Virus record (IMG/VR): IMGVR_UViG_2861069343_000003
Span: 1 to 19,381 of that record
Direction: 5' to 3' (one strand)
Origin: a virus
Lineage: Duplodnaviria > Heunggongvirae > Uroviricota > Caudoviricetes
Length of the DNA: 19,381 nucleotides
The notes beneath the pieces were generated by a model. The model saw only the letters and a list, made by a program, of their open reading frames with translations, made no database searches and was not told where the DNA came from. Below are positions 2,338 to 18,055 of the stretch, one piece after another; the first letter of the stretch is position 1; every line of letters starts with the position of its first letter. A program made the translations under genes and the position numbers.

Positions 2338-5300
2338 TTATTTAGAGGCAAGCGCCGCCTCAATTGCAGATAATCTTTGTTTTAATTCTGCGTTTTCTTC
2401 TTCCAGCGAGGTAACGCGATCATCTGTTTCACGGGCGACCTGAACAAGTAAACCCGTCACGGCGGCGTAGTCAACATTAAGATAGCGCGTTTCTTCGCGT
2501 AGCTCGTTGCCGTCAACGGTCGGGCCTTGCAACTCTTCACCGTAATGGATGAATGAACCAACGGCCTCCGGGATGGCCTCTTCAACTTCCTGGGCTATAA
2601 CCCCGGCGCAATGTGCCCCATTCTCCTTGAGCGTGTACGTGTATCCATTAATTTTGCGGATTGCGTCAGTCGCGTTATCGATAATCTCGATATTTTCTTT
2701 CAGTCTGCGGTCTGATGACTGATTCAGTGTGGTGCAGTTAACACTTCCGTTTACAGTAAGGTTTTGCCCGTCTGTTGTTTTTTGCGCATAAAACAGATAC
2801 GCAGCAGACGTGCCAACCTCAAAAACGTTTTGTCGAGTACTGGAACCCCACACCCTGATACTAACTGGTAGTTCTGAATTACCTGAATTAAGTAAAGCAA
2901 AACGATTGCCAGTCCCTGTTTGTTTTCTAATTACTAAATCGGCAGTTGAGTTAACCTCATCTTTGTTGATGGTTAGCGCCTGTGCTGTAGCACCGTTGAC
3001 AGTACCGCTTAGTAGTTGCACCGCGCCATCATCGCCATTTAACAGCACTTGAGCGCTGCTTCTGTGGTTTTTAAGGCACAACATTTTTCCCGTGTTTTTC
3101 GATGTACCTACTGACCACGCCGAATTGGTTCCAGTGCTATCAACACCGCGCACAGCACAATTCATACTACTGTAATCTGACGTACTCCCCAGCACATCAA
3201 CACGCCCGCCGCCTAATTTTGATGGAGTCGTCGAGGTTAACGACCTGACGGTTACATCCTGATTCCATCCTGAAACAACTACCTGACTCCACTCCGTCCA
3301 ACTTCCATTGACAACAAAGCGAACGTATATGCGTTTTGTGTCGCTGCCAATCAGCGTTTGCATGATCGCATAATCTGAACCCGTAGTTTTACGAGTAGAT
3401 TCTACACGTAGCAAAAAGTTACCGCTTACGCCGTCAGGCTTATTGGTAATATATGCACCACCTGCGACAGTTTTGCATTGATAGTATTTAACAGATCCAG
3501 CCACTGTATTAGCAATGATCAAGTCGTTTAAATCAATAGTCTTGTTGTCAATGGTTTCCGGCTCGATAGATCCCGCCATACCTGCGTTAAATGTGGCAAG
3601 GTCAGAAAAGGTTGTTTTACCGCCTACCGTCACCCCGCTATCGAGTTTTGCTTGTGTGATTACTTTGCTGTTTTTTGTGTGGTCAGAATAACTACCAAAA
3701 TACAAATCACCGTCACCAGCTATACCCAGGTATTTTTGATCAACATCATCAACCTTAAACCCAATGGACAAGTTTTTAATTGTGTTGTTGCTCGTTAAAA
3801 CCAAAGGCGTATGCTGAGATCCTTTGATGCTTACCGTAGTGTTATCGGAACTGGTGCTTGTGTTTGCAAATTCTGCGGTGGCTGCGCTGATTTTGTAAGT
3901 TATTTTTAGATTGCGGGCCTCAACCCTCCCGTCGTGGCGAACAATAAAATCACCACTTGATTCACCTTTTGTGTTTTTCGCCCTGATGTGGATTTCGCCA
4001 AGTGATTCGTTGTTTTCAGGCGACCAAACAACGCCGCGCTCGCTTCCGTCGTTGTTCATGAACCACAGATGAGCGGTTCCTTTTGCTGATTTTAGCCTGA
4101 TAGATGGCGTTTCTTTCAATATATCAAGATCACCAGACATAACATCGCCGGATTTTTTCACCTGCGCATCGTTCGTTACGTTGCCAAGTCCAACATCCGA
4201 TTTCGACGGCTTGTTTGCCGAGCCGTATAGCTCATTGACGCTAAAAGTCCCGTTGTTAAGCCGGGCATCGTTGCCGGCATAGATCTTAATCTTCGCGGTT
4301 GAGTAGTCGATATTGATCGCTGACCACGTATCGCCGCACCGCGAGAATATACCAGAACCGTGGCTATAAATGGTCGCCGTGCTTCCGGTCGGCCTATCAC
4401 CGCGCCAGAAATGACCACCTTTGTCACGCAGAGCTTTTAAGATCTCTACATCGCTCATCTTGCCGTTTGTTGATATCCCGCTACCGCCAAGACCGAAAGC
4501 GCCTGTAAGCATAGCATTAGAAAGACCCAAATCTGCTTTAGTCGGCTTGTTTAACTGGTCGTAAATCCTTACAACGGGGCTTTCAACATATCCAGAAGGC
4601 GCGGCGGTTTGCTTAACAAATCCGTCTGGAATGTATAATTCCGGGCGTGCCGTCTGCGCCAGTACCGCAACCTTTGCGCCGTTGATAAATGCGCGCTGGA
4701 AGGCCCAAACCTCAATAAAGCCGTCACCTTTAACCAGGCCGTAACGCATCTGGTTGTTATCGGTCAGCCCGGTTGACCCTAAGCGGCGTATACTCAGATG
4801 ACGAGAAACATTATCCGCACTAAGCAAAGAAGGCAGACCGCGCGCCGAGATCTCGATAAAGTCAATGTTTCCGTAAGGGGAGCCGTAGTTACCAGCGTTA
4901 GTAACCATTAGCGTTACATGGCAATTGCCGCTTCCGGGATCGGAAAGTTTCGCGATCTTTATGTAAAAAGACTCATTACCAGTAACAACGGGCCAATCGT
5001 ATTGCGTCATCGGGCTGACGAGTCCCCCGACCTTGTCGAGATATTCTTTCGCCTTGTTCTCTGACGCTTTAGCGTTGGTTTCGCTGACCTTTGCTGCTGC
5101 CTCACTATTTTTCGCGTTGGTTTCTGATTTTTTGGCTGCTGTCGCGGAGTTTGCCGATGCAGTTTGTGAGTCTGCTGCCGCCTGTGCGCTGTTATCCGCA
5201 TTCGTCTCAGACGTTTTTGCGGCCTTCGCGGAATTTCCTGCTGCCGTTGCCGAGGAAGCTGCACTGCCGGCGCTCGAGGCAGCGCTCGTTTCTGATGATT

Positions 5301-6039
5301 TTGCCGCCACTTTTGAAGCCGACGCATCCCGGGCTGAGGTGGCAGCTTCTGACGCTTTCGTGGTCGCGGTGGATGCAGAAGTGGCCGCAGATTTTTGTGA
5401 TGCTGCGGCATTCGTTTCTGACGTTTTCGCTGCACCGGCACTGGTGGCTGCCGCGCTTTTTGAAGACTCTGCAGCGGCAGCACTTTTTGATGCTTCAGTA
5501 GCCTTTGTTGATGCCGTTCCTGCGCTGGAAGACGCTGACTGAGCCGACGACGCGGCCTGTCCGGCTGACGTGCTGGCTGCGCGTGCGGAGTCCGCAGCAT
5601 CAGTCGCATGGGTTGCCGCCTCACGGGCTGATGTGCGGGCATCACTGGCTGACTTCTTCGCGGCTGCCGTGTTCTGTGCTACTGCGGACGCGTTACGCGC
5701 CACCTCTTCCACCATCAGTTCAAAGCGGCGCAGTGCCTCCGGACGGACATCATCCTCCGTCATGGCACCGAGAAAATCATTCAGCGTACCCGGTTGTGAG
5801 TCTTCATACACGGTGATGGTCCCGGCATGCGATGGCGGGAAGCCTTCCACCAACAGAATAACGCTGTACTGACCGTACTCAACGTCCATGCTGTAACGCC
5901 CGGCTTCATCCGGGTTTTCTGAGGCCACTGTGTTCACCACCACCGTGGTGCTGTTGCGCCTGGCCTTTAGCTGAATGGTGCAGTTTTGTATCGGCTTACC
6001 TGCGCCATCTTTCAGTACACCTGAAATCCGTACTGCCAT
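2338..6039 (-). CDS. stf: Side tail fibre protein (lambda Stf-like, 1233 aa) with Ala/Ser-rich repeat shaft and C-terminal intramolecular chaperone domain
   Basis: N-terminus MAVRISGVLKDGAGKPIQNCTIQLKARRNSTTVVVNTV...YSMDVEYGQYSVIL matches remembered lambda Stf almost residue for residue. The C-terminus carries SDRRLKENIE...NVDYAAVTGLLVQVARE...LEEENAELKQRL, typical of the self-cleaving tail-fibre/endosialidase chaperone domain. Confidence 0.9.
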   Translation of the reverse strand: MAVRISGVLKDGAGKPIQNCTIQLKARRNSTTVVVNTVASENPDEAGRYSMDVEYGQYSVILLVEGFPPSHAGTITVYEDSQPGTLNDFLGAMTEDDVRPEALRRFELMVEEVARNASAVAQNTAAAKKSASDARTSAREAATHATDAADSARAASTSAGQAASSAQSASSSAGTASTKATEASKSAAAAESSKSAAATSAGAAKTSETNAAASQKSAATSASTATTKASEAATSARDASASKVAAKSSETSAASSAGSAASSATAAGNSAKAAKTSETNADNSAQAAADSQTASANSATAAKKSETNAKNSEAAAKVSETNAKASENKAKEYLDKVGGLVSPMTQYDWPVVTGNESFYIKIAKLSDPGSGNCHVTLMVTNAGNYGSPYGNIDFIEISARGLPSLLSADNVSRHLSIRRLGSTGLTDNNQMRYGLVKGDGFIEVWAFQRAFINGAKVAVLAQTARPELYIPDGFVKQTAAPSGYVESPVVRIYDQLNKPTKADLGLSNAMLTGAFGLGGSGISTNGKMSDVEILKALRDKGGHFWRGDRPTGSTATIYSHGSGIFSRCGDTWSAINIDYSTAKIKIYAGNDARLNNGTFSVNELYGSANKPSKSDVGLGNVTNDAQVKKSGDVMSGDLDILKETPSIRLKSAKGTAHLWFMNNDGSERGVVWSPENNESLGEIHIRAKNTKGESSGDFIVRHDGRVEARNLKITYKISAATAEFANTSTSSDNTTVSIKGSQHTPLVLTSNNTIKNLSIGFKVDDVDQKYLGIAGDGDLYFGSYSDHTKNSKVITQAKLDSGVTVGGKTTFSDLATFNAGMAGSIEPETIDNKTIDLNDLIIANTVAGSVKYYQCKTVAGGAYITNKPDGVSGNFLLRVESTRKTTGSDYAIMQTLIGSDTKRIYVRFVVNGSWTEWSQVVVSGWNQDVTVRSLTSTTPSKLGGGRVDVLGSTSDYSSMNCAVRGVDSTGTNSAWSVGTSKNTGKMLCLKNHRSSAQVLLNGDDGAVQLLSGTVNGATAQALTINKDEVNSTADLVIRKQTGTGNRFALLNSGNSELPVSIRVWGSSTRQNVFEVGTSAAYLFYAQKTTDGQNLTVNGSVNCTTLNQSSDRRLKENIEIIDNATDAIRKINGYTYTLKENGAHCAGVIAQEVEEAIPEAVGSFIHYGEELQGPTVDGNELREETRYLNVDYAAVTGLLVQVARETDDRVTSLEEENAELKQRLSAIEAALASK
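5035..5700 (-). repeat. Low-complexity Ala/Ser/Thr-rich repeat region inside stf (iterated KTSETNA / SAAxSA units)
   Basis: Stf residues about 115-335 are runs of A, S, T, K and E with reiterated KTSETNA(x)NS motifs. The region is GC-rich and repetitive and generates five spurious overlapping ORFs on both strands in the track (5007-5872). Confidence 0.6.
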
Positions 6040-6050
6040 ATTCCCCCCAC

Positions 6051-6075: not shown

Positions 6076-6103
6076 CTGTCATAACACTGTGTTACCTGGC
6101 TAA

Positions 6104-6703
6104 TCAGAATTTATAACCGACACCCACGATGAAACCGTCAGTGCGCCAGTCACCACTGCCGGAACCTTCATAAGCAATATCAATGGCCACGGATTCGGTC
6201 GGGTTAAACTGCACGCCAGCCCCCCACGCCAGAGACGTGTTGCTGTGGCGACCGTCATCACTTCCGGTCAGCACATCGTGCGTTTTCCCCTTGTTGTCAG
6301 TTACGCGGAGATAATCCCCGGAGAAAGTCGACACACGGCTGTAAGCCACACCCGCCATCGCATACGCGCTGAACCATTCATTCACGCGCACAGACGGCCC
6401 CGCCATCACGCTGAACCAGCGGTTACGCACGGAATCCTCATGCCAGCGGGTATCGCTGTAATGCGTTTTTTGCTCATCTTCAGCGTTGGCATAACTGAAT
6501 GACGTAATCAGCCCCAGCGTGTCCGTAAACTCATAACGGTATTTCACGTTAATCCCGTTCAGATTATCGCTGCCGGGAGCGTTCGTACGGGCATGAAGAT
6601 ACCCTGCGCTCAGTGTGGCCTGCTGCTCAGACGCCCATGCAGGCGCACCGGATACGGCCAGACAGATGGCTGCGGACAAAATGGCTGCACAAACTTTACG
6701 CAT
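6104..6703 (-). CDS. lom: Lom outer-membrane protein (Ail/Lom/PagC family beta-barrel), 199 aa
   Basis: Signal peptide MRKVCAAILSAAICLAVSGAPAWA, then GINVKYRYEFTD...SVMAGP...AYAMAGVAYSR and a C-terminus DIAYEGSGSGDWRTDGFIVGVGYKF that matches remembered lambda Lom. Sits in the lambda position between J and stf. Confidence 0.9.
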   Translation of the reverse strand: MRKVCAAILSAAICLAVSGAPAWASEQQATLSAGYLHARTNAPGSDNLNGINVKYRYEFTDTLGLITSFSYANAEDEQKTHYSDTRWHEDSVRNRWFSVMAGPSVRVNEWFSAYAMAGVAYSRVSTFSGDYLRVTDNKGKTHDVLTGSDDGRHSNTSLAWGAGVQFNPTESVAIDIAYEGSGSGDWRTDGFIVGVGYKF

Positions 6704-6726
6704 AATTACCTCTCGCTTTTCTGCAA

Positions 6727-6751
6727 TAAAAAAGGCGCCAGAAATGGCGCC
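6727..6751 (-). terminator. Rho-independent terminator between J and lom
   Basis: Stem GGCGCCA (6734-6740) pairs with TGGCGCC (6745-6751) around a GAAA loop; on the minus strand it is followed by UUUUUUAUU (plus-strand TAAAAAA at 6727-6733). Confidence 0.5.
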
Positions 6752-6771
6752 CGCATATGGGTTATGAAAAT

Positions 6772-9700
6772 TCAGCTAATCGTGATACCTGCTGTGGATT
6801 TCTTCATCACCACAACCAGCAAATCACTGATACTGGCTGTGGGATACCAGTCATTTACCAGCCACGCTGATACCGAAAACTCCAGCGTCATGTGACCGCG
6901 ACCAGCAGGCATATCAATAACACCTGTATAAACCAGCGTATTATCCAGCGCGGTACGGTTATAAATTTCAGCACCGTTTTTCTTCACTATCAGGCGGCAT
7001 GACGAATAAATATCGTTATTCTCCCGCTCATGTTTAGCGCCACGAAACGCCACCGCGGGAATAACAATCTGCCGGTCAAACGGCTGATCGTCATAAACCC
7101 TGACGGTAATGGTCCCTGATGGCCACCGCTCCGGTGCACGGGAGTCCCGGGGGAAAGCTTTGCCCACTGTTTTAACGAGATCGCCTTCAATCTGGTTCGC
7201 AGACAGTTTTCCCAGAACCCGACAGTTTTCATTTATCGTGACATTGTTGAGCGTCCCGGCGTTCGCATTCACACTGCCACTGATATCCGCATTTTTCGCC
7301 GTCAGTCGCCCGTCCGGTGTAAGGGAAAATACCGGAGGATTACCGCCGCTGGTAATGGTGGGAGCCGTCAGATATTTCAGGAACACTTCGTTCATGAATA
7401 TCTGATCGCCCTGACCAACAAACATCGGCTTTGTGTTGCCATTCGCAGGATTAATCATCGCAATCCTGTCTGCCGCCAGCAGCACCTGACTCTGCATGCC
7501 GTCAGGGGTGTTCTCAATACCGGCACCAATACCCGCGATATAAAGGCGTCCGTCCTGCATCTGCTGCAGCTTCACAGCCCACATGCTGTTCAGGTTATTA
7601 TTTGTATCAACCTGAACCTTCTGTATCTGCTGAATTGCCGCACTCTGGTCTTCCAGTTTCTTATTGACGGTCTGTGTGATTTCATTGCTGACATCCGTAA
7701 TGGATGTCCTGATTTCAGCCAGGTCAGGCGCAAGCTGACCGTTATCAATCTGCGTCCACAGCTCCTGAGCCAGATGGGTTTTCCCTATCTCGCCTTTGAA
7801 AAAATCCAGATAGCCGGATGCGTCATCACTCGGCTGACCAACAGCCTCCACGAATGCCGATTTGCCAACGGTGTTCACACTGCGAACGTAAAAATAATAA
7901 TTATGGCCCGGTTTGATATTGATACTGGCGGCTATCCAGTACAACGCCGTACCAAGATAGCGTGCTGTGGTTTCAACCTGCCTGATATCCGCAATCCGCT
8001 TTTCCGAGAACCAGAACTCAAACTGTACCGTCGGATCATAAACCGCAAGATGCGGCGTGGCGGTTATCTGAAAATAGCCCGGCGTCAGCTCAATCCGCGA
8101 CGGCGCTGCCGGTGCGGCAATCCGGAACGATACCGACGCCGGATCGCCCTGCTGCCCCCACGCATTTACTGCCCGGACTGTCAGCCTGTAGTTCCCCAGA
8201 GCCAGTTGTGTGAAGCGGTAAGTGGTTTCCGTCGTCCGGGCCGTGCTGACCAGCCGCTCACTGCCGTCATCCGCTGCCACGGTCAGGCGAAGCAGGAAGC
8301 TCACGCCCTTCACCACCTTCGGCGTGTCCCAGCGGGCCAGCACCTGGTATTCCCCGCTGTCTGCGGTGACTTCTGCGGTCAGATGCTGCACTGCTGGCGG
8401 CGTGACACCATTCACCGTGCCGCTCTGGTCGCCGTCAAAGTGCGCCCCGTTATCCACGATGGCCTCTTTTTCCGGTACATGCTGCACGGCAGTGATGGCA
8501 TACGTGCCGTCATCGTTCTCACGGATACTCACGCAGCGGAACAGGCGCTGGCGCAGCGTCGGCAGCTTCAGCCCCCACACGCTGTACTCGGCAACGCCGT
8601 CAGGAAGCCGGCTCACTTTCACCTTCACGCCGTCGGTGATGGACTGGACCTCCACGCTGACCGGATTGCCACTTCCGTCAACCAGGCTTATCAGCGTGGT
8701 ACCGGAGGATGGCAGCGTGATTTCACGGTCGAGCGTCAGCGTCCGGGTCTGGCTGTTCACCGCCAGCACGCGCCCGCCGGTGCTGATACCGGCATAGTCA
8801 TCATCGCAGATTTCAATGACATCGCCCGGTACATGGCGAAGCCCTTCAGCACCCACGCTGAAGTCCACGGTCTGCGTTTCCAGCAGCTCCGTTTTAATCA
8901 GCCACAGCCCGGCGCGGTGCGCCTGCCCCCGACTGGTACAGCCAAACGCATCCATCTTCGTGACGTTACGACCATAACGGGCAATGGCCTGCGAGTCCTC
9001 CACAAGCTCTGTTGCCGTCTCCCAGCCGTTATCCGGGTCAATCCAGTTCACTTCAACGGCATTATGGCGGTCTTTCAGGGCGCTGAAGCTGTAGCGGAAT
9101 GGTGCGCCATCATCCGGCATCACCACATTACTGCGGTTATAGGTCCACACCTTATCCGATGGTCGGTCCTGCACGAACGTCAGCGTCTGCCCGTTCCATA
9201 CCGGCATACAGCGCATCGCCGAGCAGAAATCACTGAGCACATCCCACGCCTTACGTTGTGTGGTCAGGTAAGCGTTACAGGTGATGCGCGGCTCCGTACC
9301 GCCAAAGCCGTCCGGCACCGACTGGTCGCAATTCTGGCCGATGACATACAGCGCCCATTTGTCCACATCCGCCGCACCGAGACGTTTCCCCATGCCGTAG
9401 CGCGGGTGGGTCAGCATATCCCACAGACACCAGGCCATGTTGTTGCTGTATGACGGTTTAAACGTCCCGTCCCAGATACCGCTGTATTGCCGCGTCTGCG
9501 GGTTATAATTCGACGGCACCTGCAGAATACGCCCGCGAAGATGATAATTACGGCTCACCTGCTGGCTGCCGAACTGCTCCGAATCCACCTGTACGCCGAC
9601 CAGTGCCGTGTTCGGGTAGCACTGTTTCACATCGATGATTTCGGTGTATGACGACCAGAGCGTTTTGTTCTGCAGCTGGTCTGTGGTGCTGTCCGGCGTC

Positions 9701-10251
9701 ATCCTGCGCATCCGGATGTTGAACGGGCGCGGCGGCAGATTATCCACCACTACCGAGGCCAGATACTGCGAGGTGGTTTTGCCCTTAATGGTGATGTCTT
9801 TTTCCGTCACCCAGCCACCGTTACGCTGTATCTGAACCAGCAGGCGGACTTCCGACGGATTCCGGTCCCCCTTTGAAGTGGTTTCCACCAGTGCCTGCAC
9901 ACCGAAGGTAAAGCGCAGACGGTCAATGTTTGCCGACGTGATGGTCCGGGTGATCGGCGTGTCGTATTTCACTTCCGTGCCCAGTACCGTCTCGGAACCT
10001 GATGATTCAAATCCCTCCGGCGGTGTCTGTTCCTGCTCACCTGCCCGGAACACCACCGTGACACCGGAGATGTTAGTATTCCCCTCACTGTCCAGCACCG
10101 GTGTACTGTTCAGCAGCACGCTTTTTAATCCATCCACCGGACCTTCAACCGGCCCTTCGCTGATGGCATCGATCACACTCAGCAACTGCGTGGACTTCAG
10201 GTTGTCCTTTGCTTCGCGCGGGGTATGCCCCTTACTGCTGCCTTTACCCAT
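6772..10251 (-). CDS. J: Tail tip attachment / host-specificity protein J (1159 aa)
   Basis: N-terminus [34 protein letters not shown] and long stretches throughout match remembered lambda J. The last 150-250 aa diverge from lambda J. Confidence 0.92.
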
Positions 10252-10311
10252 TCCTCACGCCCCATAAACGATAAAACCGCCCGGAGGCGGTTTCACATAA
10301 AACGTTTTTCA

Positions 10312-10953
10312 TCAGCGACCAATCACCACAACCTGACCACCGTCCCCTTCGTCTGCCGTGCTGATCTCCTGAGAAACCACGCGTGATCCCACGCGCATTT
10401 CACCGTACAGAACGGGCAGAACATTGCCCTGGGCAACCATATTATCCAGTGAAGAAAAATAGGTGTTCTGTTTGCCGTTATCCGTTGTCTGTGTGCGGGG
10501 GGTTTTGGGTTTAGGGGCCAGCATCTGTGCAACACCGCCAAGCGTCATACTGGCACCGAGAGAAAACAGCAGATTACTCGCCATAATTCCTACCCCCGGC
10601 ATCCATATAGCAACCGCCATAACAGCCGCCCCCAGCACAGCCTGAAACACACCGCCACTTTTGGCTCCTGCCAGACGCGGCACGATATGGATCACAGCAC
10701 CATTTGCCAGCGGTTCATTAAGACGGGCTGATAATTCCGTTTCACCTGTATCACGCCCGGCAATGCGTACCTGATACCAGCCGTCGCTCAGCTTCTGACG
10801 AAACGCCGGGAGCTGTGTGGCCAGTGCCCGGATGGCTTCAGCCCCCGTTTTCACACGCAGATCGATGCGGCGGCCAAATCGTTGTAAATCCCCGTAAAGG
10901 CAGATGCGCGCCATGCCCGGTGACGCCAGAGGGAGTGTGTGCGTCGCTGCCAT
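10312..10953 (-). CDS. I: Tail tip assembly protein I (213 aa)
   Basis: MAATHTLPLASPGMARICLYGDLQRFGRRIDLRVKTGAEAIRALATQLPAFRQKLSDGWYQVRIAGRD... and C-terminus ...YGEMRVGSRVVSQEISTADEGDGGQVVVIGR match lambda gpI. There is a hydrophobic central segment. Confidence 0.85.
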   Translation of the reverse strand: MAATHTLPLASPGMARICLYGDLQRFGRRIDLRVKTGAEAIRALATQLPAFRQKLSDGWYQVRIAGRDTGETELSARLNEPLANGAVIHIVPRLAGAKSGGVFQAVLGAAVMAVAIWMPGVGIMASNLLFSLGASMTLGGVAQMLAPKPKTPRTQTTDNGKQNTYFSSLDNMVAQGNVLPVLYGEMRVGSRVVSQEISTADEGDGGQVVVIGR

Positions 10954-11594
10954 TTGTCGGTATACCTCTCTCGTTTGCTCAGTTGTTCAGGAATATGGTG
11001 CAGCAGCTCGCCGTCGCCGCAGTAAATTGCGGCGTGATTCGGCACCGATGAACCAAAACAGCACAGCAGCACATCGCCCGGCTGTGCCGCTGACAACGGC
11101 ACCTGATACAGCCCCGTCGCCTCCAGATTATCCAGATAGAGATTCTGGCCGTTACGCCACCAGTCATCCTCACGATGAAAGTCCGGCATCTCAATCCCCG
11201 CCAGATGATAAGCATCCCGGAACAGTGTGTAACAGTCCGTCACACCGTGCTCAAAGCGCCGCCCGGTGAGATGCGGCACACAGCGGAACTTATGAATCGT
11301 CCCCCGGCAGACCAGCCACCACGGCAAATCACTCTGCACCTGCAGCCGCCGGTCGGCCTCACTCAGCCAGGGCAGACCACCGGGGTGGCTGTGGACCAGC
11401 GCCACAATCTCACCCTGCATTTCTGCCTGCAGCCAGTCTTCCGGCGACATACGGAAATACGCCTCCGGCTCACCGGAGATATTCACGCAGGGGAAATATC
11501 TTTCCCCCTCCGGCGTGCTTACCACGAAGCCGCACGACTCCGCTGGCGCACATCGCCGGGCGTGCGCCAGAATCGCTGATTCTGTCTGTGTCAT
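10851..11594 (-). CDS. K: Tail tip assembly protein K (MPN/JAMM plus NlpC/P60 domains); ORF is 247 aa and runs 103 nt into I
   Basis: MTQTESAILAHARRCAPAESCGFVV...ALVHSHPGG (JAMM-type HxH) ...GVTDCYTLFRDAYH...NHAAIY (NlpC/P60 Cys and His) match lambda gpK. The last 48 residues are Arg-rich (RERYTDKWQRRTHSLWRHRAWRASA) and overlap I in another frame. Confidence 0.85.
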   Translation of the reverse strand: MTQTESAILAHARRCAPAESCGFVVSTPEGERYFPCVNISGEPEAYFRMSPEDWLQAEMQGEIVALVHSHPGGLPWLSEADRRLQVQSDLPWWLVCRGTIHKFRCVPHLTGRRFEHGVTDCYTLFRDAYHLAGIEMPDFHREDDWWRNGQNLYLDNLEATGLYQVPLSAAQPGDVLLCCFGSSVPNHAAIYCGDGELLHHIPEQLSKRERYTDKWQRRTHSLWRHRAWRASAFTGIYNDLAAASICV

Positions 11595-11599
11595 GGGAT

Positions 11600-12088
11600 T
11601 TACTGCGAAAGTTTGTTAATGGAAAGGAAGCCGCCAAAGTTGCCGACGTTATTGCGGAACTTACAACCGCTCAGGCATTTGCTGCATTTATCCTTCGTGA
11701 TATCGGACGTTGGCTGGTCATATTCATCCGCGACAGCCGGACCGCTATAACCGCACTCGTCACCGCGATAGGTCCAGGTGCAGGTGTTGGCCAGCATGAT
11801 ACGTCCCGGAAAAACAGCGCCATCCGTTTCCGTCGGCGTGGACAGTACAAAGGAGGCACTCACCGCGCTCAGTTCGCTGCACTGCTCAATGCGCCAGCGG
11901 CTGATCACCTCCTGCTCCGGATCGGCATAACTGTTTCCGTTGACGAAGTTCACCGCATCCAGAAAACGGGCGTAAACATTACGCCGGACCACCGTTCCGC
12001 CGACCAGACTCTGCATATCTTCCGCCATCCCGGTGACCATACCGTACAGGTTAGAAACCGTCAGCGTGGGGCGCGTACCGCTCTTTTT
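11600..12088 (-). pseudogene. L: 5'-truncated tail tip protein L (C-terminal 146-160 aa only; N-terminal 70-85 aa missing)
   Basis: The ORF translation MVTGMAEDMQSLVGGTVVRR...CSKCLSGCKFRNNVGNFGGFLSINKLSQ matches the C-terminal two-thirds of lambda gpL. Reading the same frame upstream gives KKSGTRPTLTVSNLYG (lambda: GKGTSTRPTLTVSNLYG), then unrelated sequence and a stop at 12107-12109. Confidence 0.75.
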
Positions 12089-12207
12089 ACAAAACAGAGA
12101 AGAGCATCACCGGACGACGGGCTCATAACCCAATCCATCCGGGCGGCAGTCACCGCAGGTGTTCTTCTCTGTTTTGTGGAGAAACCAACCGACCTTGCAG
12201 GGTCGAT

Positions 12208-12588
12208 ATGATGGGGAGCAGCAAAATGGCTAGCGAACGCAGTACTGATGTGCAGGCATTTATCGGGGAGCTGGACGGCGGCGTATTTGAAACCAAAATC
12301 GGCGCAGTTCTCAGTGAAGTCGCTTCCGGTGTGATGAACACGAAAACCAAAGGTAAGGTCTCGCTCAACCTGGAAATCGAACCGTTTGATGAGAACCGTG
12401 TGAAAATCAAACACAAACTCTCATATGTTCGCCCGACTAACCGCGGGAAAATTTCCGAAGAAGACACCACCGAAACGCCGATGTATGTCAATCGCGGTGG
12501 TCGCCTGACTATTCTGCAGGAAGACCAGGGACAATTACTGACTCTTGCCGGTGAACCTGACGGAAAACTCCGCGCAGCAGGTCATTAA
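12208..12588 (+). CDS. yfdP: YfdP-like hypothetical protein (CPS-53/KplE1-type prophage gene)
   Basis: ORF of 126 aa (MMGSSKMASERSTDVQAFIGELDGG...). Starting at the third Met (12226) gives 120 aa, the length I recall for K-12 YfdP. It lies immediately upstream of the yfdQ/R/S/T-like genes in the same order as in K-12. Assignment is from memory. Confidence 0.55.
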   Translation: MMGSSKMASERSTDVQAFIGELDGGVFETKIGAVLSEVASGVMNTKTKGKVSLNLEIEPFDENRVKIKHKLSYVRPTNRGKISEEDTTETPMYVNRGGRLTILQEDQGQLLTLAGEPDGKLRAAGH

Positions 12589-12653
12589 TATCGTTCTTAA
12601 TTAACTGATTATTTATCTCATCACTGAATATCTTTATATAGTGAGGACTTATT

Positions 12654-13478
12654 ATGTCTCAGAACTTAGACGCAACCGCAATTAATCAAATCCATGCCCT
12701 TATTTCTGCTCAGGGTGTTAATGAAATTATCAGTAAAATTGGTGCCGATGCTGTGGCATTGCCTGAGAATTTCCGCATTCATGATCTGGAAAAATTTAAT
12801 TTAAATCGCTTCCGTTTCCGTGGTGCGCTTTCCACTGCCAGCATCGATGACTTTACCCGTTATTCTAAAGATCTTGCAGATGAAGGCACCCGCTGCTTTA
12901 TCGATGCTGATAATATGCGAGCCGTCAGTGTGCTTAACCTGGGTACTATTGATGAACCAGGTCACGCAGATAACACCGCCACTCTCAAACTGAAAAAGAC
13001 AGCACCGTTCTCTGCCCTGTTGTCTGTTAACGGCGAGCGTAACTCCCAGAAGTCACTGGCAGAATGGATTGAAGACTGGGCCGACTACCTTGTGGGCTTT
13101 GATGCTAATGGTGACGCCATTCAGGCAACAAAAGCGGCTGCGGCGGTCCGTAAAATCACGATTGAAGCAAACCAGACCGCTGATTTTGAAGACAATGACT
13201 TCAGCGGCAAACGCTCTCTGATGGAGTCTGTCGAAGCGAAAACCAAAGACATTATGCCAGTAGCATTTGAGTTTAAATGCGTTCCATTTGAAGGCCTGAA
13301 AGAACGTCCGTTTAAATTACGCCTCAGCATTATCACTGGTGATCGCCCTGTACTGGTTCTGCGCATTATTCAGCTGGAAGCAGTACAGGAAGAAATGGCT
13401 AACGAATTTCGTGATCTGCTTGTTGAAAAATTCAAAGACAGCAAAGTAGAAACCTTTATTGGTACTTTCACCGCCTGA
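12654..13478 (+). CDS. yfdQ: YfdQ-like protein (DUF2303-type prophage protein), 274 aa
   Basis: ORF of 274 aa with an AGGA ribosome-binding site 7 nt upstream of the ATG. Length and position match K-12 YfdQ as I recall it. Confidence 0.7.
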
Positions 13479-13490
13479 TTTCATTACTGC

Positions 13491-13512
13491 AAATGCCCCT
13501 GCGGGGGCATTT
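13491..13512 (+). terminator. Hairpin downstream of yfdQ (putative terminator or attenuator)
   Basis: AAATGCCCC, loop TGCG, GGGGCATTT: a perfect 9-bp stem beginning 13 nt after the yfdQ stop codon. Confidence 0.4.
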
Positions 13513-13536
13513 ATGGAAACGTAATTAACTCAATAA

Positions 13537-13561
13537 TCGCCTGATGGCGAGGGTTTTCTTT
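13537..13561 (+). terminator. Second hairpin with U-rich tail downstream of yfdQ
   Basis: TCGCC, loop TGAT, GGCGA, followed by GGGTTTTCTTT. Confidence 0.4.
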
Positions 13562-13605
13562 AACCAAAATTCAGCGCGGTGCAGCGCATATACGTGGAGA
13601 ACAAA

Positions 13606-14142
13606 ATGTCATTTATTAAAACTTTTTCCGGGAAGCATTTTTATTATGACAGGATAAATAAAGACGACATCGATATTAACGATATCGCGGTTTCCCTTTC
13701 AAATATCTGTCGCTTTGCCGGTCATCTTTCGCACTTCTACAGCGTCGCCCAACATGCGGTTCTTTGCAGCCAGCTGGTGCCGCAGGAATTTGCTTTTGAA
13801 GCGTTAATGCATGATGCAACAGAAGCGTATTGCCAGGACATTCCCGCACCACTGAAACGCCTTCTTCCTGACTATAAACGGATGGAAGAAAAAATAGACG
13901 CCGTAATCCGTGAGAAATACGGGTTACCCCCGGTTATGAGCACGCCAGTGAAATATGCCGATCTCATCATGCTGGCAACCGAACGCCGCGATCTCGGACT
14001 TGATGATGGCTCTTTCTGGCCTGTACTGGAAGGTATCCCGGCAACAGAGATGTTCAAAGTGATTCCACTGGCTCCAGGCCATGCCTACGGGATGTTTATG
14101 GAACGTTTTAACGAGTTATCGGAGTTACGCAAATGCGCATGA
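13606..14142 (+). CDS. yfdR: HD-domain phosphohydrolase, YfdR-like (178 aa from the ATG)
   Basis: HD-domain signature: H in SVAQHAVLCSQL and HD in EALMHDATEAYCQD. The track ORF starts at a GTG at 13579, but the ATG at 13606 has a GGAGAA ribosome-binding site 7 nt upstream and gives 178 aa, the K-12 YfdR length as recalled. Confidence 0.75.
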   Translation: MSFIKTFSGKHFYYDRINKDDIDINDIAVSLSNICRFAGHLSHFYSVAQHAVLCSQLVPQEFAFEALMHDATEAYCQDIPAPLKRLLPDYKRMEEKIDAVIREKYGLPPVMSTPVKYADLIMLATERRDLGLDDGSFWPVLEGIPATEMFKVIPLAPGHAYGMFMERFNELSELRKCA

Positions 14143-14495
14143 ATGTTTTCGAAATGGAAGGGTTTCTTCGCGGGAAATGTGTACCGCGAGATCTGAAAGT
14201 GAACGAAACAAATGCTGAGTACCTGGTACGTAAATTCGATGCGCTTGAAGCTAAATGTGCGGCACTGGAAAACAAAATAATACCAGTGTCAGCTGAACTA
14301 CCACCAGCAAATGAAAGTGTTCTGTTATTTGATGCTAACGGAGAAGGCTGGCTGATTGGCTGGCGTTCTCTCTGGTACACCTGGGGACAAAAAGAAACCG
14401 GAGAATGGCAGTGGACATTTCAGGTCGGGGACATTGAAAGCGTCAATATCACTCACTGGGCAGTAATGCCAAAAGCACCGGAGGCTGGAGCATAA
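14133..14495 (+). CDS. yfdS: YfdS-like prophage protein (120 aa)
   Basis: ORF of 120 aa overlapping the yfdR stop by 10 nt. Its stop overlaps the next start as TAATG. Length and order match K-12 YfdS. Confidence 0.65.
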   Translation: MRMNVFEMEGFLRGKCVPRDLKVNETNAEYLVRKFDALEAKCAALENKIIPVSAELPPANESVLLFDANGEGWLIGWRSLWYTWGQKETGEWQWTFQVGDIESVNITHWAVMPKAPEAGA

Positions 14496-15115
14496 TGACC
14501 ACATTTACCGATAAAGAACTGATTAAAGAAATCAAAGAGCGTATCAGCAGCCTGGAGGTTCGAGACGATATTGAGCGCCGTGCTTATGAAATTGCTCTGG
14601 CATCGCTGGAAGAGGAGCCGGTGGCATGGCTACATTCAGACAATGGCTTAGGTATTCCAGCAATAACCAGGAGTAAAAACATTGCTGACAGTTGGTTATC
14701 AAAGGGCTGGTATGTTCAGCCGCTATATATAGCCAAGCCAGTGCCGGTGGTGCCAGATGCTCGTCCGACTTTAAATAATGGCATAGTCGGTTTTGATGAA
14801 GGCTGGAACGCCTGCCGCACCACCATGCTTCACGGTGTCAAACCTGTAAGCCAGACTTACAAGTTGAACAAGCTGTCTGACAACTCTCCGGTAACTCCGG
14901 ATGGTTGGATAAGCTGTAGTGAGCGAATGCCGAACGATAAACAATATGTTTGGTGTTGGGGTAAGTCTTACGGCTGGACTGAGTGCGATACCTTCGAAGG
15001 GTATTACGATTGTTCGAGAAACAAATGGTGGGCAGTTACTGACGATGGGGAAGAACCGGCATTGAAAGTAACCCACTGGATGCCGCTACCGGAGCCACCG
15101 CAGGAGGTGAAGTAA
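14495..15115 (+). CDS. yfdT: YfdT-like protein with C-terminal DUF551-type domain (206 aa)
   Basis: C-terminus WISCSERMPNDKQYVWCWGKSYGWTECDTFEGYYD...KVTHWMPLPEPP resembles DUF551. Start and stop are both coupled to neighbours through TAATG overlaps. The K-12 copy is shorter as I recall. Confidence 0.6.
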   Translation: MTTFTDKELIKEIKERISSLEVRDDIERRAYEIALASLEEEPVAWLHSDNGLGIPAITRSKNIADSWLSKGWYVQPLYIAKPVPVVPDARPTLNNGIVGFDEGWNACRTTMLHGVKPVSQTYKLNKLSDNSPVTPDGWISCSERMPNDKQYVWCWGKSYGWTECDTFEGYYDCSRNKWWAVTDDGEEPALKVTHWMPLPEPPQEVK

Positions 15116-15309
15116 TGAACAACTTAATGACAACTAAACAAGTCGCCGACTTCTGTGGCGTTTCAGTATCGACAGTTCTTCGCTGGAACAGCGTAAACAG
15201 GAGAACTGGCCAGAAATATAGGCCTGACTTTCCAGATCCTGATATTAAATCCTGCCCCAATAAATGGGCATCACACAAGATATACAGGTTTGCGGGAGTT
15301 ATTGAGTAA
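15115..15309 (+). CDS. AlpA/Xis-family helix-turn-helix protein (putative excisionase or regulator), 64 aa
   Basis: HTH segment TTKQVADFCGVSVSTVLRW is typical of AlpA/phage-excisionase HTH proteins. It is the last gene of the plus-strand operon and converges on the integrase-side cargo gene. Confidence 0.65.
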   Translation: MNNLMTTKQVADFCGVSVSTVLRWNSVNRRTGQKYRPDFPDPDIKSCPNKWASHKIYRFAGVIE

Positions 15310-15322
15310 TACGTATTAGTTC

Positions 15323-15387
15323 AGATGTGAGCTAACACATCTATGGCACAGAGCTAAACCTAATCTGACTGTCTACTCTGTGCCATA
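15323..15387. repeat. Two adjacent inverted repeats (hairpins) in the convergent intergenic region between the AlpA-like gene and the 870-aa cargo gene
   Basis: AGATGTG (15323-15329) pairs with CACATCT (15336-15342) around a 6-nt loop. TATGGCACAGAG (15342-15353) pairs with CTCTGTGCCATA (15376-15387), a perfect 12-bp stem with a 22-nt loop. Neither has a clean U-tract. They lie exactly at the composition change into the AT-rich cassette. Confidence 0.4.
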
Positions 15388-15442
15388 AGTGGATGTTAAT
15401 TACTTCTTGGTATTTTAATGGTTGGATAGCTTATCAAGATTA

Positions 15443-18055
15443 CTAATCACCCTGTGATGTAAAATAAAACCAATGGTATTCTAGAGCTTGCATAGACAAC
15501 CCAACCTTGTCCCTCAATAGGACACCATTCAGCTCCTGATAGTACCTATCGCGCACCATATCACTTACGTGAATCCTTAAAGTCGCTGGGTCAATAGATA
15601 TTAGATAGTTATCAAAGAGACGATGTATATCAGTACGCAATAACAAGCCATTTTTTATATGATTATCCTTATCTCCTCTGTAAGGATAAATATGAGCTGC
15701 ATCAAGTACTGCTATTGTTTTGCACCCAGTAAAGGCACATTGCCCCCAAACGTTTATCAGTTTATTTCTGAAGTCGCTTTGACCTATACGTATCGTGACG
15801 TTTCTATTTATAACCTTTCGTTCATCAGAGTTATTTATTTTAAAACTCCCTGCTGTTGAAAAATCAAATTTTTCAGTCGCACTAAATATTTTTTTAGATT
15901 GTTTTTTTACTTTTGCAAGCTGTAAATCTGACTTTATTTGTAAGGGTTTTGAGTTTTCTTCATCAAACGATGGAAGTTGAAGTTCTTTAATCATGCTGGT
16001 AGATAGAAAATTTTTGTAACTCATTAACTTAAAATCTAATCCTCGCTCATAACGAATTTTAGAGAGCACTATTGCAGCTTCTTCAATGTATTTAAAACTA
16101 CTTTTCCTTTTATCCCATAATTGAGATAAACAATCTGCATTTAACCTATCATATCTTGATAAAATCTCACCCAAACTGCTGGCTTTAGCGGCGCTATCAT
16201 AGTTTATATACTGTTTTTCTTGGGAATCTTCAATGGAATCCAGAATAAAATTTATATTTACATGATTATCTGCATCTGCATCTGCAGATGCAGATGAATC
16301 ATTAAAATTATCGTAGTCAAGAGAATTTTGATCACTCCAAATAGGTAGCGATAGATAGCAAATATTATCAATGCTGTCGTCCACCAACATTAATTTTTGG
16401 TGGAGTAAAAATAATATAACTGAAGCTTCAAGGTAATTCATTTCTTGTGACAAGAATTTTTCTTTAAGCATATCAAAGTCATATTGTACGTATTCATTTT
16501 TTTTCTTTGATATTACGGAGAGTTGCTCTTCACTTAAGACCACTGGCCTGTCTTCTGATATATTACGAAGTAAGTATGAAATCAATTTTTTTTGATTTTT
16601 TTTAGAATCTTCAGACCTAGGAGGTTCGAGAAACACACCTTCAAGTCTATCCAATGCTTTAAGGCAACTTCCCGCAAGCCTAGTCATCGCATCTTTTCTT
16701 GTTTGAATTAGAGGATCTGCATAGATAACAAAATTATCCCCATTACGAATATGAGCTATTTCAAGCTGATATACATCTAGATTTTTTATAAGTTTAAATA
16801 CAAATCCGTATTTTTGCATTCTATGCAAAGTCAGTGTCGGTATAATATCTTTATTAGATTCTTCATCCAAATTATAGTTTTTTATTCTTTTGTACAACCA
16901 ATTTGTTGCAGAGGAAGAGCAAATTAACTCATTATATTGAATTTTACTATTTTTAGTTATCAGATTTAGAAGAGACATTCCAAACAATGCCTGAATACAA
17001 TCTACATAATAAGATATAGTTGTATAATCTGGATGTCCTTTATAGGGGAGAGAATCTATTGAAATAAAACCTGAGTTATAGAATCTCATAAAGTTTTTTT
17101 CAGATAACACCATGATCCCTAACGTAGTTCTGTCAATAACATTCTGTCCATTTTTTATTATCTCAAGTAGGCTTACTGAAGCTAGTAAGGAAATATAATG
17201 CGAACCTAAAGTAGCGAGATCTCTGTGCGAACTTATAGATCTATTTTTACCCTTTATTCTAGGGGGTATAAAAGCCTGGATTGAATTAAAGTTATTTGAA
17301 AAACCAAAAGCCATGTTCAATTCATTGTTGATGTAACACTCTTTAACATTCGGTTTCTGTACGCCACCCCATGCTGAAATAATACTATTAGATTTTAATA
17401 TTTGTTTTTTATTGTTTTTCAAATTCAAATGATTGCAAACTAAACTGGCAACATTATTCTCTGCTTTTTTTTTACTCTCACCACTTCCGATAAATATCTG
17501 TCCATTAGGAAGTGCTATTTCAGACTCATATATTGGTGCATGCTCGGTCCCACCAGCCAAGGTGGTTTTGTATGTAGGGATTATGTGTTGATGTCTTTGG
17601 AAATATTCATGTAAAAGAGTTTTTGGGGGTTTGCCAACAAATGACTCCGTAATAGAAAGGCTTTCAACAAAAAATTTGAGATGTAATATGATATCACAAT
17701 TAGATATCGCCCCTAGGTAAAATTGAAATATTTGAATTATCATAGAAGATGAGTTGATTTCTTCTTGTTTTACTCCAGGACCAAATTCTGTTTGTTGGTA
17801 GACTTTTGTTAAGGGAAAATTTGTAACAACAAGCTCTCTTAGTTTTTTCTTCAGGCTGCTAGTCATAATGCTTAAATTGTTACCATCCGCACCTTCTATA
17901 CTCAGAGACCGACAAGCGCAGATTAAATCCTCAAGCGACTTACCAACTGATACAGTTGCGTTAAACAATTCAGTATTGCAATTAAAAGATGAACGATGAC
18001 TTATCTGAATATAATTTTCGTTGATATGATTTATGAATAACTTATTCATTTTCAC
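15443..18055 (-). CDS. 870-aa multidomain protein: N-terminal catalytically degenerate RNase III-like domain plus dsRBD, central region with a possible second RNase III-like repeat, C-terminal HNH nuclease domain; candidate defence effector
   Basis: By-eye alignment to E. coli RNase III across residues 15-210: ISHRSS / LTHRSA, FGPGVKQ / [22 protein letters not shown] / [37 protein letters not shown] / [29 protein letters not shown] / [23 protein letters not shown] / GTGSSRRKAEQAAA. The ERLEFLGD box is replaced by TELFNATV and the D/E of ADTVEA by Q/Q. C-terminus (residues 750-845): [11 protein letters not shown]...GQCAFTGC...LDAAHIYP...[15 protein letters not shown], an HNH-type motif. Strongly AT-rich. 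The track start at 18055 is a GTG; ATG at 18049 is the alternative. Confidence 0.85.
   Translation of the reverse strand: [870 protein letters not shown]

What the first reader, a model, noticed from the sequence alone, without database searches (positions are those of the whole stretch)
12041..12207. Recombination breakpoint: lambda-type tail module truncated inside gene L and joined to a CPS-53-like yfd block
Homology to lambda gpL runs from the C-terminus back to about TRPTLTVSNLYG and then stops. The N-terminal 70-85 aa of L and all upstream tail and head genes (M, H, T, G, V and so on) are absent. The yfdP-like gene begins about 120 bp away on the opposite strand. J, stf and lom remain intact-looking ORFs although no complete tail could be built, which suggests a relatively recent deletion or recombination, or retention of these genes for another reason.
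Basis: seen in the sequence. Interest (0 to 1): 0.45.

Follow-up and report, generated by a model that had tools for sequence, protein, structure and literature searches.

The report
Prophage deletion scar at a recurrent breakpoint
This is the scar of a roughly 27 kb internal deletion that crippled one lambda-like prophage of E. coli, which is ordinary prophage decay, except that one end of the scar lies at exactly the same base pair as at least four other independent deletions in related prophages.

Summary
Tail gene L (minus strand) is homologous to full-length L only up to window 12078, so codons 1-73 are missing. The yfdP side begins at 12075, giving a 4-bp overlap, GTAC.

The interpretation needs correcting. 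This is not a lambda-type element fused to a CPS-53-like element. It is one lambdoid prophage, inserted between prfC and yjjG, that lost about 26.8 kb. The lost segment runs from its own early-left leader through immunity, replication, lysis, head and tail genes into L. E. coli strain 200088 carries an intact sibling at the same site.

The scar is found in 12 of 5,426 complete genomes, with 99.8-100% identity across the junction region. A thirteenth genome of the same clone has a further deletion that truncates J. Recent origin therefore explains the intact-looking J, lom and stf, and no selection need be invoked.

Unexpectedly, the yfd-side endpoint (CTGG|TACC) is reused to the base. It lies in the 3' arm of a conserved hairpin followed by a T-run. 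Four other deletion types, one deletion running the opposite way, and an 11-nt duplication all share this bond. Control bonds nearby show none. The site looks like a fragile point, but the mechanism is only inferred.

The parts
11600..12078 (-). Remnant of tail gene L (from within codon 74 to the stop codon); pseudogene lacking codons 1-73
   Evidence: RefSeq pseudogene in AR437
12075..12078 (.). Deletion junction: 4-bp microhomology GTAC shared by both parental sequences (7 of 9 matches if written GGCNNGTAC)
   Evidence: three-way alignment of window, intact L and intact leader
12076..12207 (+). Retained distal part of the early-left leader. It holds the 3' half of the 3' arm of hairpin I (12076-12081), a T-run (12084-12088), and hairpin II, a stem of about 25 bp (12085-12109 pairing with 12158-12182). 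It is absent from K-12 CPS-53.
12226..12588 (+). yfdP (RefSeq start; the first in-frame ATG is at 12208)
12654..13478 (+). yfdQ (DUF2303)
13606..14142 (+). yfdR (5'-deoxynucleotidase, HD domain)
   Evidence: PMC4776307
14133..15115 (+). yfdS-like gene and a second DUF551 gene
10851..11594 (-). Tail gene K (C40 peptidase), intact ORF
10312..10914 (-). Tail assembly gene I, intact ORF
6772..10251 (-). Tail tip gene J, intact 1159-aa ORF
6104..6703 (-). lom (Ail/Lom outer-membrane protein)
2338..6039 (-). Side tail fibre (stf) ORF, 1233 aa
15443..19381 (-). HNH/dsRBD protein gene and integrase gene at the att-proximal end of the same prophage (integrase 18158-19381)

Best explanation
The window is the remnant of a single lambdoid prophage integrated between prfC and yjjG. 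One illegitimate, microhomology-mediated deletion of about 26.8 kb joined base ~220 of tail gene L to a point about 130-150 nt upstream of yfdP, in the phage's own early-left (pL-type) leader. The deletion removed the repressor and cro region, the replication, nin and Q genes, the lysis cassette, the terminase and head genes, and tail genes Z through M plus the first 73 codons of L. What remains is a non-inducible, harmless remnant that kept its cargo at both ends.

Shown: both arms, the junction, the 4-bp GTAC overlap, the intact sibling, and the clonal, recent distribution.

Inferred: the event began as a DNA break or stalled 3' end at the bond CTGG|TACC (window 12075|12076). In intact phages this bond lies in the 3' arm of a conserved 10-12 bp hairpin that is followed by a T-run and a second, roughly 25-bp hairpin. 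The freed end ...GGTA-3' (minus strand) then paired through its terminal 0-4 nt with a distant sequence, here GTAC in L. The joint was then extended or ligated, as in microhomology-mediated end joining or template switching. What makes this bond fragile is unknown. Candidates are a polymerase stalling in the hairpin, a collision with RNA polymerase paused at a terminator-like hairpin during abortive induction, and a structure- or sequence-directed nick.
For: An intact sibling prophage sits at the same chromosomal site and shares the integrase, DUF551, YfdP, YfdQ, YfdR, YfdS, DinI, SLATT and RT proteins. The right arm, 12075-19381, is 99.9% identical to it. BLAST and the three-way alignment place the two endpoints in L (L005 27300) and in the leader (L005 509), 26,790 bp apart in the sibling, with GTAC shared. 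There is no IS element and no long repeat at the joint. The scar occurs in 12 complete genomes at 99.8-100% identity, and the adjacent K-L segment is identical or nearly so in all 12. EC01440 shows a second-step deletion.

Evidence for the recurrent endpoint: four further junction types begin at the same T of TACCG. Their partners are L nt ~10 (L003), mid-L (L006), a holin gene (L067/L133) and a KilA-N gene (L132, also in complete genomes E4 and TUM10008). Their microhomologies are TA, 0-1 nt, TAC and TACC, and each starts at that T. A deletion in the opposite direction into yfdR (L144) and an 11-nt tandem duplication (L136, L145) use the same bond. In IMG/VR, all 3 hits at the bond are true junctions of 3 different types. 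Three control bonds (-1, -11, +13) gave 0 junctions. In an unbiased set of about 120 metagenome loci, 3 junction types fall on this bond, whereas each other unique boundary in about 450 nt is a single type. The hairpin is conserved, and DNA folding gives z = -2.9. The whole leader folds as RNA with z = -5.1.
Against: No exact intact parent is in the collection. The closest intact K-L segment is 98.1% identical, and the 200088 sibling is only 95.6-97.1% identical over the tail arm. The ancestor therefore carried a different tail-module variant, and a deletion across two tandem prophages cannot be formally excluded.

For the fragile-site inference: L003 and L006 lie at one locus and could be nested events in one lineage. 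L144 is a single assembly. The duplication could have spread by recombination rather than arising twice. The hairpin loop (17-19 nt) is too long for a textbook intrinsic terminator, and the terminator scan did not call it. Other unique junctions exist elsewhere in the leader. No tool here can show a nick, a stall or a pause.
Confidence: 0.85

Rival explanations
1. The deletion is a random illegitimate recombination event. The identical yfd-side endpoint in other junction types is coincidence, shared ancestry or ascertainment, so there is no fragile site.
For: Microhomology of 0-4 nt is typical of random illegitimate deletions. TAC and GTAC are common words. L003 and L006 share a locus and an I-J deletion, so they are not fully independent. 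Other unique junctions occur at other leader positions.
Against: At least four prophage lineages use the same phosphodiester bond. They differ in late modules or chromosomal sites: the lambda-like tail prophage at prfC-yjjG; the lambda-like tail prophage at thrW; the prophage with baseplate-type tail genes in E4; and the holin junction L067. A deletion running the other way and a duplication use the bond too. Control bonds gave no junctions. The microhomology always starts at the same T rather than straddling it.
Confidence: 0.12
2. The junction arose by recombination between two different resident elements, a lambda-type prophage and a CPS-53-like element, or by unequal exchange between two tandem prophages.
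For: The tail arm is 95.6-97.1% identical to the 200088 sibling, while the yfd arm is 99.9% identical. The yfd genes are 97.4% identical to K-12 CPS-53 from window 12207 onward.
Against: Both outer ends of the remnant carry the same proteins as the single intact prophage at the same site. Bases 12076-12206 are phage leader absent from CPS-53. The element is not at argW and lacks intS and the gtr genes. yfdPQR is a normal early-left module of lambdoid phages. Mosaic replacement of tail modules is the usual reason for unequal identity between arms (own knowledge).
Confidence: 0.06
3. The deletion was made by a dedicated recombinase or transposase. Examples are integrase acting on a secondary att site, IS-mediated adjacent deletion, or an IS200/IS605- or IS110-like element that recognises the hairpin.
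For: A fixed end paired with a variable partner is the classical signature of Int-promoted lambda deletions and of IS-mediated adjacent deletions (own knowledge). A hairpin lies next to the fixed end.
Against: There is no IS or transposase at any of the junctions. The endpoint is about 7 kb from int and att. Lineages with two different integrases (prfC-yjjG type and thrW type) share the endpoint. One junction has no microhomology at all. No inserted element was seen at this bond among more than 240 leader copies that include this bond.
Confidence: 0.05
4. The remnant is maintained because L'-K-I-J-lom-stf still does something useful, such as a tail-tip-derived particle or a surface protein, and the short L is functional.
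For: K, I, J, lom and stf are intact ORFs. Lom-family proteins and tail-fibre genes are often retained in cryptic prophages (own knowledge; reviews found but not read).
Against: L lacks 73 residues and has no plausible start signal at the junction. No tube, tape-measure or head genes remain. The clone shows almost no divergence, so intactness carries no information on selection. EC01440 has deleted L, K, I and most of J.
Confidence: 0.03

Closest known systems
Cryptic lambdoid prophages of E. coli formed by internal deletions (Rac, Qin, DLP12, e14 in K-12; the defective prophage pool of O157)
   Same: A lambdoid prophage that lost its immunity, replication, lysis and morphogenesis genes through a large internal deletion. 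It keeps the integrase end, the tail-fibre/lom end and accessory cargo.
   Different: This remnant is much younger. An almost identical intact sibling still exists at the same site, and the remnant is confined to one clone (13 of 5,426 complete genomes).
CPS-53 (KpLE1) cryptic prophage of E. coli K-12
   Same: yfdP, yfdQ, yfdR and yfdS homologues, about 97% identical in DNA from window 12207 rightwards.
   Different: The window element has a different attachment site (prfC-yjjG rather than argW) and a different integrase. It has no gtr genes and no torI. Bases 12076-12206 of the leader are absent from CPS-53.
Phage lambda gpL (Phage_tail_L, PF05100), tail-tip complex protein
   Same: The remnant is 95.7% identical in protein to residues 71-233 of a full-length prophage L protein (233 codons including the stop).
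   Different: The N-terminal 73 residues are absent and there is no start codon context, so it is a pseudogene.
LLS / ST64B / phiNP-type lambdoid phages with a yfdP-yfdQ-yfbR(yfdR) early-left module (PMC12315714)
   Same: The same early-left gene cluster combined with lambdoid late genes, which shows that the two 'modules' belong together.
   Different: Those are complete phages. Their early-left leader and its hairpins were not compared here.
Deletions with one fixed and one variable endpoint: Int-promoted lambda b-region deletions, IS-mediated adjacent deletions (own knowledge)
   Same: One endpoint is reused to the base and the partner varies.
   Different: The fixed end here is not an att core or an IS end. 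No recombinase can be assigned, and the same bond also bounds a deletion in the other direction and a small duplication.
Microhomology-mediated end joining, fork stalling and template switching, and MMBIR (Hastings et al. 2009, PMC2621351, listed but not read); breaks at paused or backtracked RNA polymerase (own knowledge)
   Same: Terminal microhomology of 0-4 nt, with imperfect extra matches only on the primer side (for example TACNGTCC, 7 of 8, in the holin junction).
   Different: These models usually give non-recurrent endpoints. Here one end recurs at a hairpin, and none of the mechanistic steps was observed.

Membership tests
Phage minor tail protein L (PF05100), functional member | Full-length domain (profile positions 1-206) in an ORF of about 232 aa with its own start | tested here: not met
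   Only profile positions 46-206 match. DNA homology stops at L nt ~220. No N-terminus is present elsewhere in the window.
CPS-53 / KpLE1 prophage | Integration at argW with intS, and the gtr (yfdG-H-I) genes | tested here: not met
   The element lies between prfC and yjjG, has a different integrase and has no gtr genes.
CPS-53 / KpLE1 prophage | yfdP-yfdQ-yfdR-yfdS gene block | tested here: met
   97.4% DNA identity to K-12 over 1368 nt, starting at window 12207. The block is also a general lambdoid early-left module, so it is not diagnostic.
Single-prophage internal deletion | Both arms are contiguous with the two ends of one prophage at one att site, and an intact relative has the missing segment between the two breakpoints | tested here: met
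   The 200088 prophage at prfC-yjjG has 26,790 bp between the two breakpoints.
Microhomology-mediated illegitimate recombination | A few bp shared by both parents at the joint; no long repeat, IS or att core | tested here: met
   GTAC is shared, and no other element is present at the joint.
IS-mediated adjacent deletion | An IS element retained at the fixed endpoint | tested here: not met
   No IS is present at the junction in the window or in the other junction types.
Integrase-promoted secondary-site deletion | Fixed endpoint inside the att core next to int, with dependence on one integrase | tested here: not met
   The endpoint is about 7 kb from the integrase end, and prophages with two different integrases share it.
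Intrinsic (Rho-independent) terminator, for hairpin I plus the T-run in intact phages | GC-rich stem, short loop (3-8 nt), U-tract directly after the stem, RNA 3' ends there | tested here: inconclusive
   The 10-12 bp stem and TCTTTTT tail are present. The loop is 17-19 nt, and the pattern scan did not call it. RNA 3' ends are not testable here.
Known RNA families (Rfam 15), for the early-left leader | Match at or above the family's gathering score | tested here: not met
   Only one chance-level hit, a miRNA family at E = 0.58.

The most novel reading that the evidence does not exclude
The bond CTGG|TACC in the 3' arm of the conserved early-left leader hairpin of yfdP-type lambdoid prophages is a genuine fragile site with base-pair precision, meaning a recurrent nick, break or polymerase stall. 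It repeatedly seeds the large deletions that turn these prophages into harmless remnants. If so, prophage 'domestication' in E. coli would be partly channelled by a specific DNA or RNA structure rather than by random deletion followed by selection.
Probability: 0.55. Interest if true: 0.6.

Novelty: new member of a known kind. Interest (0 to 1): 0.35.

Why it matters
Taken alone, the junction is one more example of how lambdoid prophages decay. It matters mainly for correct annotation: the L pseudogene, the leader remnant, and one defective prophage rather than two elements.

The recurrent endpoint is the part worth following. It offers a natural, sequence-defined hotspot at which the mechanism of large illegitimate deletions in bacteria could be dissected. 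Such work could separate the contributions of hairpin structure, transcription and replication. It also suggests that the inactivation of a widespread prophage family follows a preferred path.

The remnant keeps defence-type cargo at both ends: a SLATT plus UG17 reverse transcriptase pair, and an HNH/dsRBD protein. This fits the view that hosts keep prophage ends after the lethal middle is lost.

Tried and rejected
- **K-12 CPS-53 as the source of the yfd side.** Homology starts only at window 12207, and the K-12 boundary (yfdO|yfdP) is at a different position, so it is neither the parent nor another user of the hotspot.
- **Known RNA in the leader.** Rfam found nothing.
- **Coding versus structural constraint in 12077-12211.** Ungapped column counts were confounded by indels and by my exact-match selection. 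The result was not informative.
- **Att-core repeats flanking the prophage in AR437.** No direct repeat of 12 nt or more was found in the ranges I searched. I did not pursue this.
- **Restriction-type cut at GGTACC (KpnI or Acc65I pattern).** I rejected this as the main explanation. The neighbouring GGTACC in the 5' arm is not used, and the retained ends (|TACC and CTGG|) do not fit a 4-nt staggered cut.
- **RusA cleavage (5' of CC) and Chi-like GCTGGTAC.** The positions do not fit the observed bond (reasoning).
- **L144-type junction in complete genomes.** The 403 apparent hits were two-piece matches to a different variant that lacks yfdPQ, not the same junction.
- **Sequence type of the clone.** A literature search on one strain name gave nothing useful.
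- **Promoter for yfdP in the remnant.** The consensus scan found none. This is not evidence of absence.

Full report
**What is in the window.** The window is an exact substring of the chromosome of E. coli AR437 (NZ_CP029108; L001 positions 9002-28382). RefSeq places it between prfC and yjjG. It is a defective prophage of about 20 kb.

From left to right it contains:
- a DinI-like gene, just outside the window;
- a SLATT protein and a reverse transcriptase;
- side tail fibre, lom, J, I and K, and a truncated L, all on the minus strand;
- yfdP, yfdQ, yfdR and two DUF551 genes on the plus strand;
- an 870-aa HNH protein and a tyrosine integrase on the minus strand, next to yjjG.

**Check of the observation.** The minus-strand translation across the finding reads ...SGTRPTLTVSNLYGMVTG... 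and continues to the L stop codon at 11600.
- Pfam Phage_tail_L matches only profile positions 46-206 of 206.
- A full-length L from a related prophage aligns from residue 71 to the end. Nothing resembling the first 70 residues is found anywhere else in the window.
- The segment missing relative to the intact relative has no blastn match in the window.
- RefSeq independently annotates this L as 'incomplete, missing N-terminus'.
- The same 2.5 kb around the junction is present at 99.8-100% identity in 12 complete genomes from different laboratories, so it is not an assembly artefact.

**What the junction is.** E. coli strain 200088 (NZ_CM128592) carries an apparently complete lambdoid prophage at the same prfC-yjjG site.
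- It shares the same integrase, DUF551 protein, YfdP, YfdQ, YfdR, YfdS, and DinI-like, SLATT and RT proteins, by protein accession.
- Between the yfd genes and the tail-tip genes it has the usual lambdoid set. These are a cI-like repressor and a cro-like gene, replication genes, RusA, KilA-N, DUF968, Q, holin, endolysin and spanin. Then come terminase, portal, protease, decoration and capsid proteins, and tail genes up to a 232-aa L.

Aligning the window to this prophage gives two colinear blocks.
- The tail arm matches up to window 12078. This corresponds to L005 27300, which is 220 nt into L.
- The yfd arm matches from window 12075, corresponding to L005 509.
- The two points are 26,790 bp apart in the sibling.
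- The parental sequences share GTAC at the crossover, or GGCNNGTAC with 7 of 9 matches.
- There is no IS element, no att-like sequence and no longer repeat at the joint.

This is a single internal deletion by illegitimate, microhomology-mediated joining.

The right arm (12075-19381) differs from the sibling by three substitutions and one 36-nt indel. The tail arm is 95.6-97.1% identical. The exact K-L variant is found only in the 12 remnant genomes, and the nearest intact copy is 98.1% identical. The direct ancestor therefore carried a different mosaic variant of the tail module and is not in the collection. This is the main caveat on the single-prophage reading.

**Why it is not 'lambda tail joined to CPS-53'.**
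- K-12 CPS-53 homology (97.4%) begins only at window 12207, immediately before the first ATG of yfdP.
- Bases 12076-12206 are the distal part of this phage's own early-left leader. That leader is an untranslated stretch of about 600-700 nt between the repressor-gene terminator and yfdP.
- The element is not at argW and has neither intS nor the gtr genes.
- YfdR binds DnaA, and the yfdQRST cluster inhibits replication initiation when overexpressed (PMC4776307). This fits an early phage function.

The two 'modules' therefore belong to one phage type.

**Age and selection.**
- The scar occurs in 12 of 5,426 complete genomes, with 99.8-100% identity across the junction region and identity or near-identity in the adjacent K-L segment.
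- A thirteenth genome, EC01440, has both arms identical or nearly so. It has lost window 7535-12124 (the L remnant, K, I and about two thirds of J) through a second deletion. That deletion used an imperfect microhomology of about 6-7 nt, and its right end lies inside hairpin II rather than at the first junction.

The intact appearance of J, lom and stf is therefore explained by recent origin. There is no evidence that they are maintained, and there is direct evidence that J is dispensable in this clone.

**The unexpected part: a reused endpoint.** Other genomes join L to the yfd block at other positions in L but at exactly the same base on the yfd side. A scan of public metagenome contigs used a 31-mer just right of the site. 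It returned about 120 loci. Scans of IMG/VR added more. In total, five different junctions begin with the same T of TACCG (window 12076):

| Junction type | Partner sequence | Microhomology |
|---|---|---|
| The window | L nt ~220 | GTAC |
| L003/L040 | L nt ~10 | TA |
| L006/L038/L134 | mid-L | 0-1 nt |
| L067/L133 | inside a holin gene | TAC, then 7 of 8 as TACNGTCC |
| L132, plus complete genomes E4 and TUM10008 | inside a KilA-N gene; about 5.5 kb deleted | TACC |

These junctions lie in prophages that differ in attachment sites or late modules. The set includes a lambda-like tail prophage at prfC-yjjG and a lambda-like tail prophage at thrW. It also includes the E4 prophage, which has baseplate-type tail genes and the thrW-type integrase. 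At least three or four of the events are therefore independent.

The microhomology always starts at that T and extends rightwards. This is what one expects if a fixed minus-strand 3' end (...GGTA-3') primed on, or was joined to, the partner sequence.

The same bond is also used in two other ways:
- It is the left-retaining end of a 1,764-bp deletion into yfdR (L144, no microhomology).
- It is the right boundary of an 11-nt tandem duplication, CTTCCGGCTGG (L136 and L145, which have different upstream leader classes).

Controls in IMG/VR:
- All 3 sequences that deviate immediately left of TACCG are true junctions, of 3 different types.
- A pattern deviating one base further left gave no hits.
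- A pattern at -11 gave 11 hits, all point variants.
- A pattern at +13 gave none.

In the metagenome set, other unique boundaries exist at roughly ten other leader positions, each with a single type (see also cM2a). The bond is therefore a hotspot, not the only place where deletions end.

**Anatomy of the site in intact phages.** The sequence is GCGGTACCAG-N19-CTGG|TACCGC followed by TCTTTTT.
- Hairpin I has a stem of 10 bp perfect, or 12 bp with G-U pairs. The break falls in its 3' arm.
- After the T-run comes hairpin II, a stem of about 25 bp (window 12085-12109 pairing with 12158-12182) that encloses a structured interior. It ends about 25 nt before yfdP.
- As single-stranded DNA the hairpin I region folds better than shuffles (z = -2.9). 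As RNA the 196-nt leader segment folds at -76 kcal/mol (z = -5.1).
- Rfam has no match.
- Hairpin I plus the T-run resembles an intrinsic terminator or pause site, but its loop is long and the pattern scan did not call it.
- All three upstream leader classes share the hairpin.

**Mechanism: shown and inferred.**

Shown: the deletion, its endpoints, the microhomology, the recurrence of one endpoint, and the conserved hairpin.

Inferred: a break, nick or stalled nascent 3' end forms at CTGG|TACC. The freed end then joins elsewhere with 0-4 nt of terminal pairing.

Both chromosomal loci are oriented so that the chromosomal fork copies the plus strand from right to left. This rests on K-12 gene order and the positions of oriC and the terminus, which is my own knowledge. 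In that orientation a nascent minus strand would enter hairpin I from its 3' arm. However, the opposite-direction deletion (L144) and the duplication fit a nick or double-strand break at the bond better than a one-sided stall.

One attractive but untested scenario runs as follows. The events happen during abortive induction, when pL is active and phage forks run into RNA polymerase paused at the hairpin and T-run. Cells that delete the lethal middle of the prophage survive.

I considered and set aside restriction-type cleavage of GGTACC, RusA, a Chi-like sequence, integrase secondary sites and IS-mediated deletion. The reasons are given under 'tried and rejected'.

**Verdict.** The finding is real, and its core reading (N-terminal truncation of L by a recent deletion) is right. 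The 'two elements' framing and the hint of selective retention are not supported. As a junction it is an ordinary new instance of prophage decay. The base-precise reuse of its yfd-side endpoint is the only feature that would interest a specialist, and it needs a full census and experiments before it can be called a fragile site.

Noticed in passing
window 1-1900 (+): A SLATT_5 protein and a reverse transcriptase lie at the far end of the prophage next to a DinI-like gene. Their best PADLOC matches are RTasSLATT (E = 1e-56) and RT_UG17 (E = 1e-158). This is a candidate DRT-type anti-phage pair carried as prophage cargo. The same two proteins (by accession) are encoded by the intact sibling prophage.
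   Followed up: partly
window 15443-18055 (-): An 870-aa protein with a double-stranded RNA-binding motif (residues 144-210) and a C-terminal HNH_2 nuclease domain (773-822), encoded next to the integrase. The sibling in strain 200088 has a 36-nt indel in this gene. In other prophages with related integrases this slot holds different genes (a dGTPase-family protein, an ATP-binding protein), so it looks like a variable cargo or defence slot.
   Followed up: partly
window 12085-12182 (+); L004 11930-12125: The early-left leader upstream of yfdP forms a very stable stem of about 25 bp with a structured interior (RNA fold z = -5.1). It has no Rfam match. Its position just before the first gene of the operon recalls the RNase III site in the lambda N leader (own knowledge). 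It is conserved across three otherwise different upstream leader classes.
   Followed up: partly
L268 (EC01440) 41322-41328; window 7535-12124: One member of the same clone has a second-step 4.6 kb deletion that removes the L remnant, K, I and most of J. The deletion was mediated by an imperfect ATA(A)CCC microhomology, and its right end lies inside hairpin II.
   Followed up: yes
L136 and L145 (IMG/VR), at the site equivalent to window 12075|12076: An 11-nt tandem duplication, CTTCCGGCTGG, ends exactly at the hotspot bond. It is seen in two contigs with different upstream leader classes.
   Followed up: partly
L269 (strain 1506) 5976-6913; about 403 complete genomes: A common variant of the early-left region has the leader followed directly by yfdR, so yfdP and yfdQ are missing. 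The prophage with the KilA-N junction (E4) is of this type.
   Followed up: no
window 2338-6039 (-): The side tail fibre is one uninterrupted 1233-aa ORF in the sequence. RefSeq nevertheless splits it into a 'pyocin knob domain-containing S74 family peptidase' CDS and a partial N-terminal pseudogene. This looks like an annotation inconsistency rather than a real disruption.
   Followed up: no
L004 11852-11947 (left part of the leader); K-12-derived strain BZKR3G40 (NZ_CP064681.1) 1643519-1643614: The first ~100 nt of the queried leader segment are about 95% identical to a short segment in other prophages. One such match is at about 1.64 Mb in a K-12-derived strain, which is probably in the Qin prophage region (from memory, not checked). 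This indicates a shared leader module among otherwise different lambdoid prophages.
   Followed up: no
L002 (ETEC6333) 12010-12428; L130 (cM2a) 10705-11292: Two further independent deletion junctions in related thrW-site prophages end elsewhere. One joins L (truncated at both ends) to the cro-like gene. The other joins Q to a point about 270 nt upstream of yfdP. Together they show repeated loss of the same central region by different routes.
   Followed up: partly
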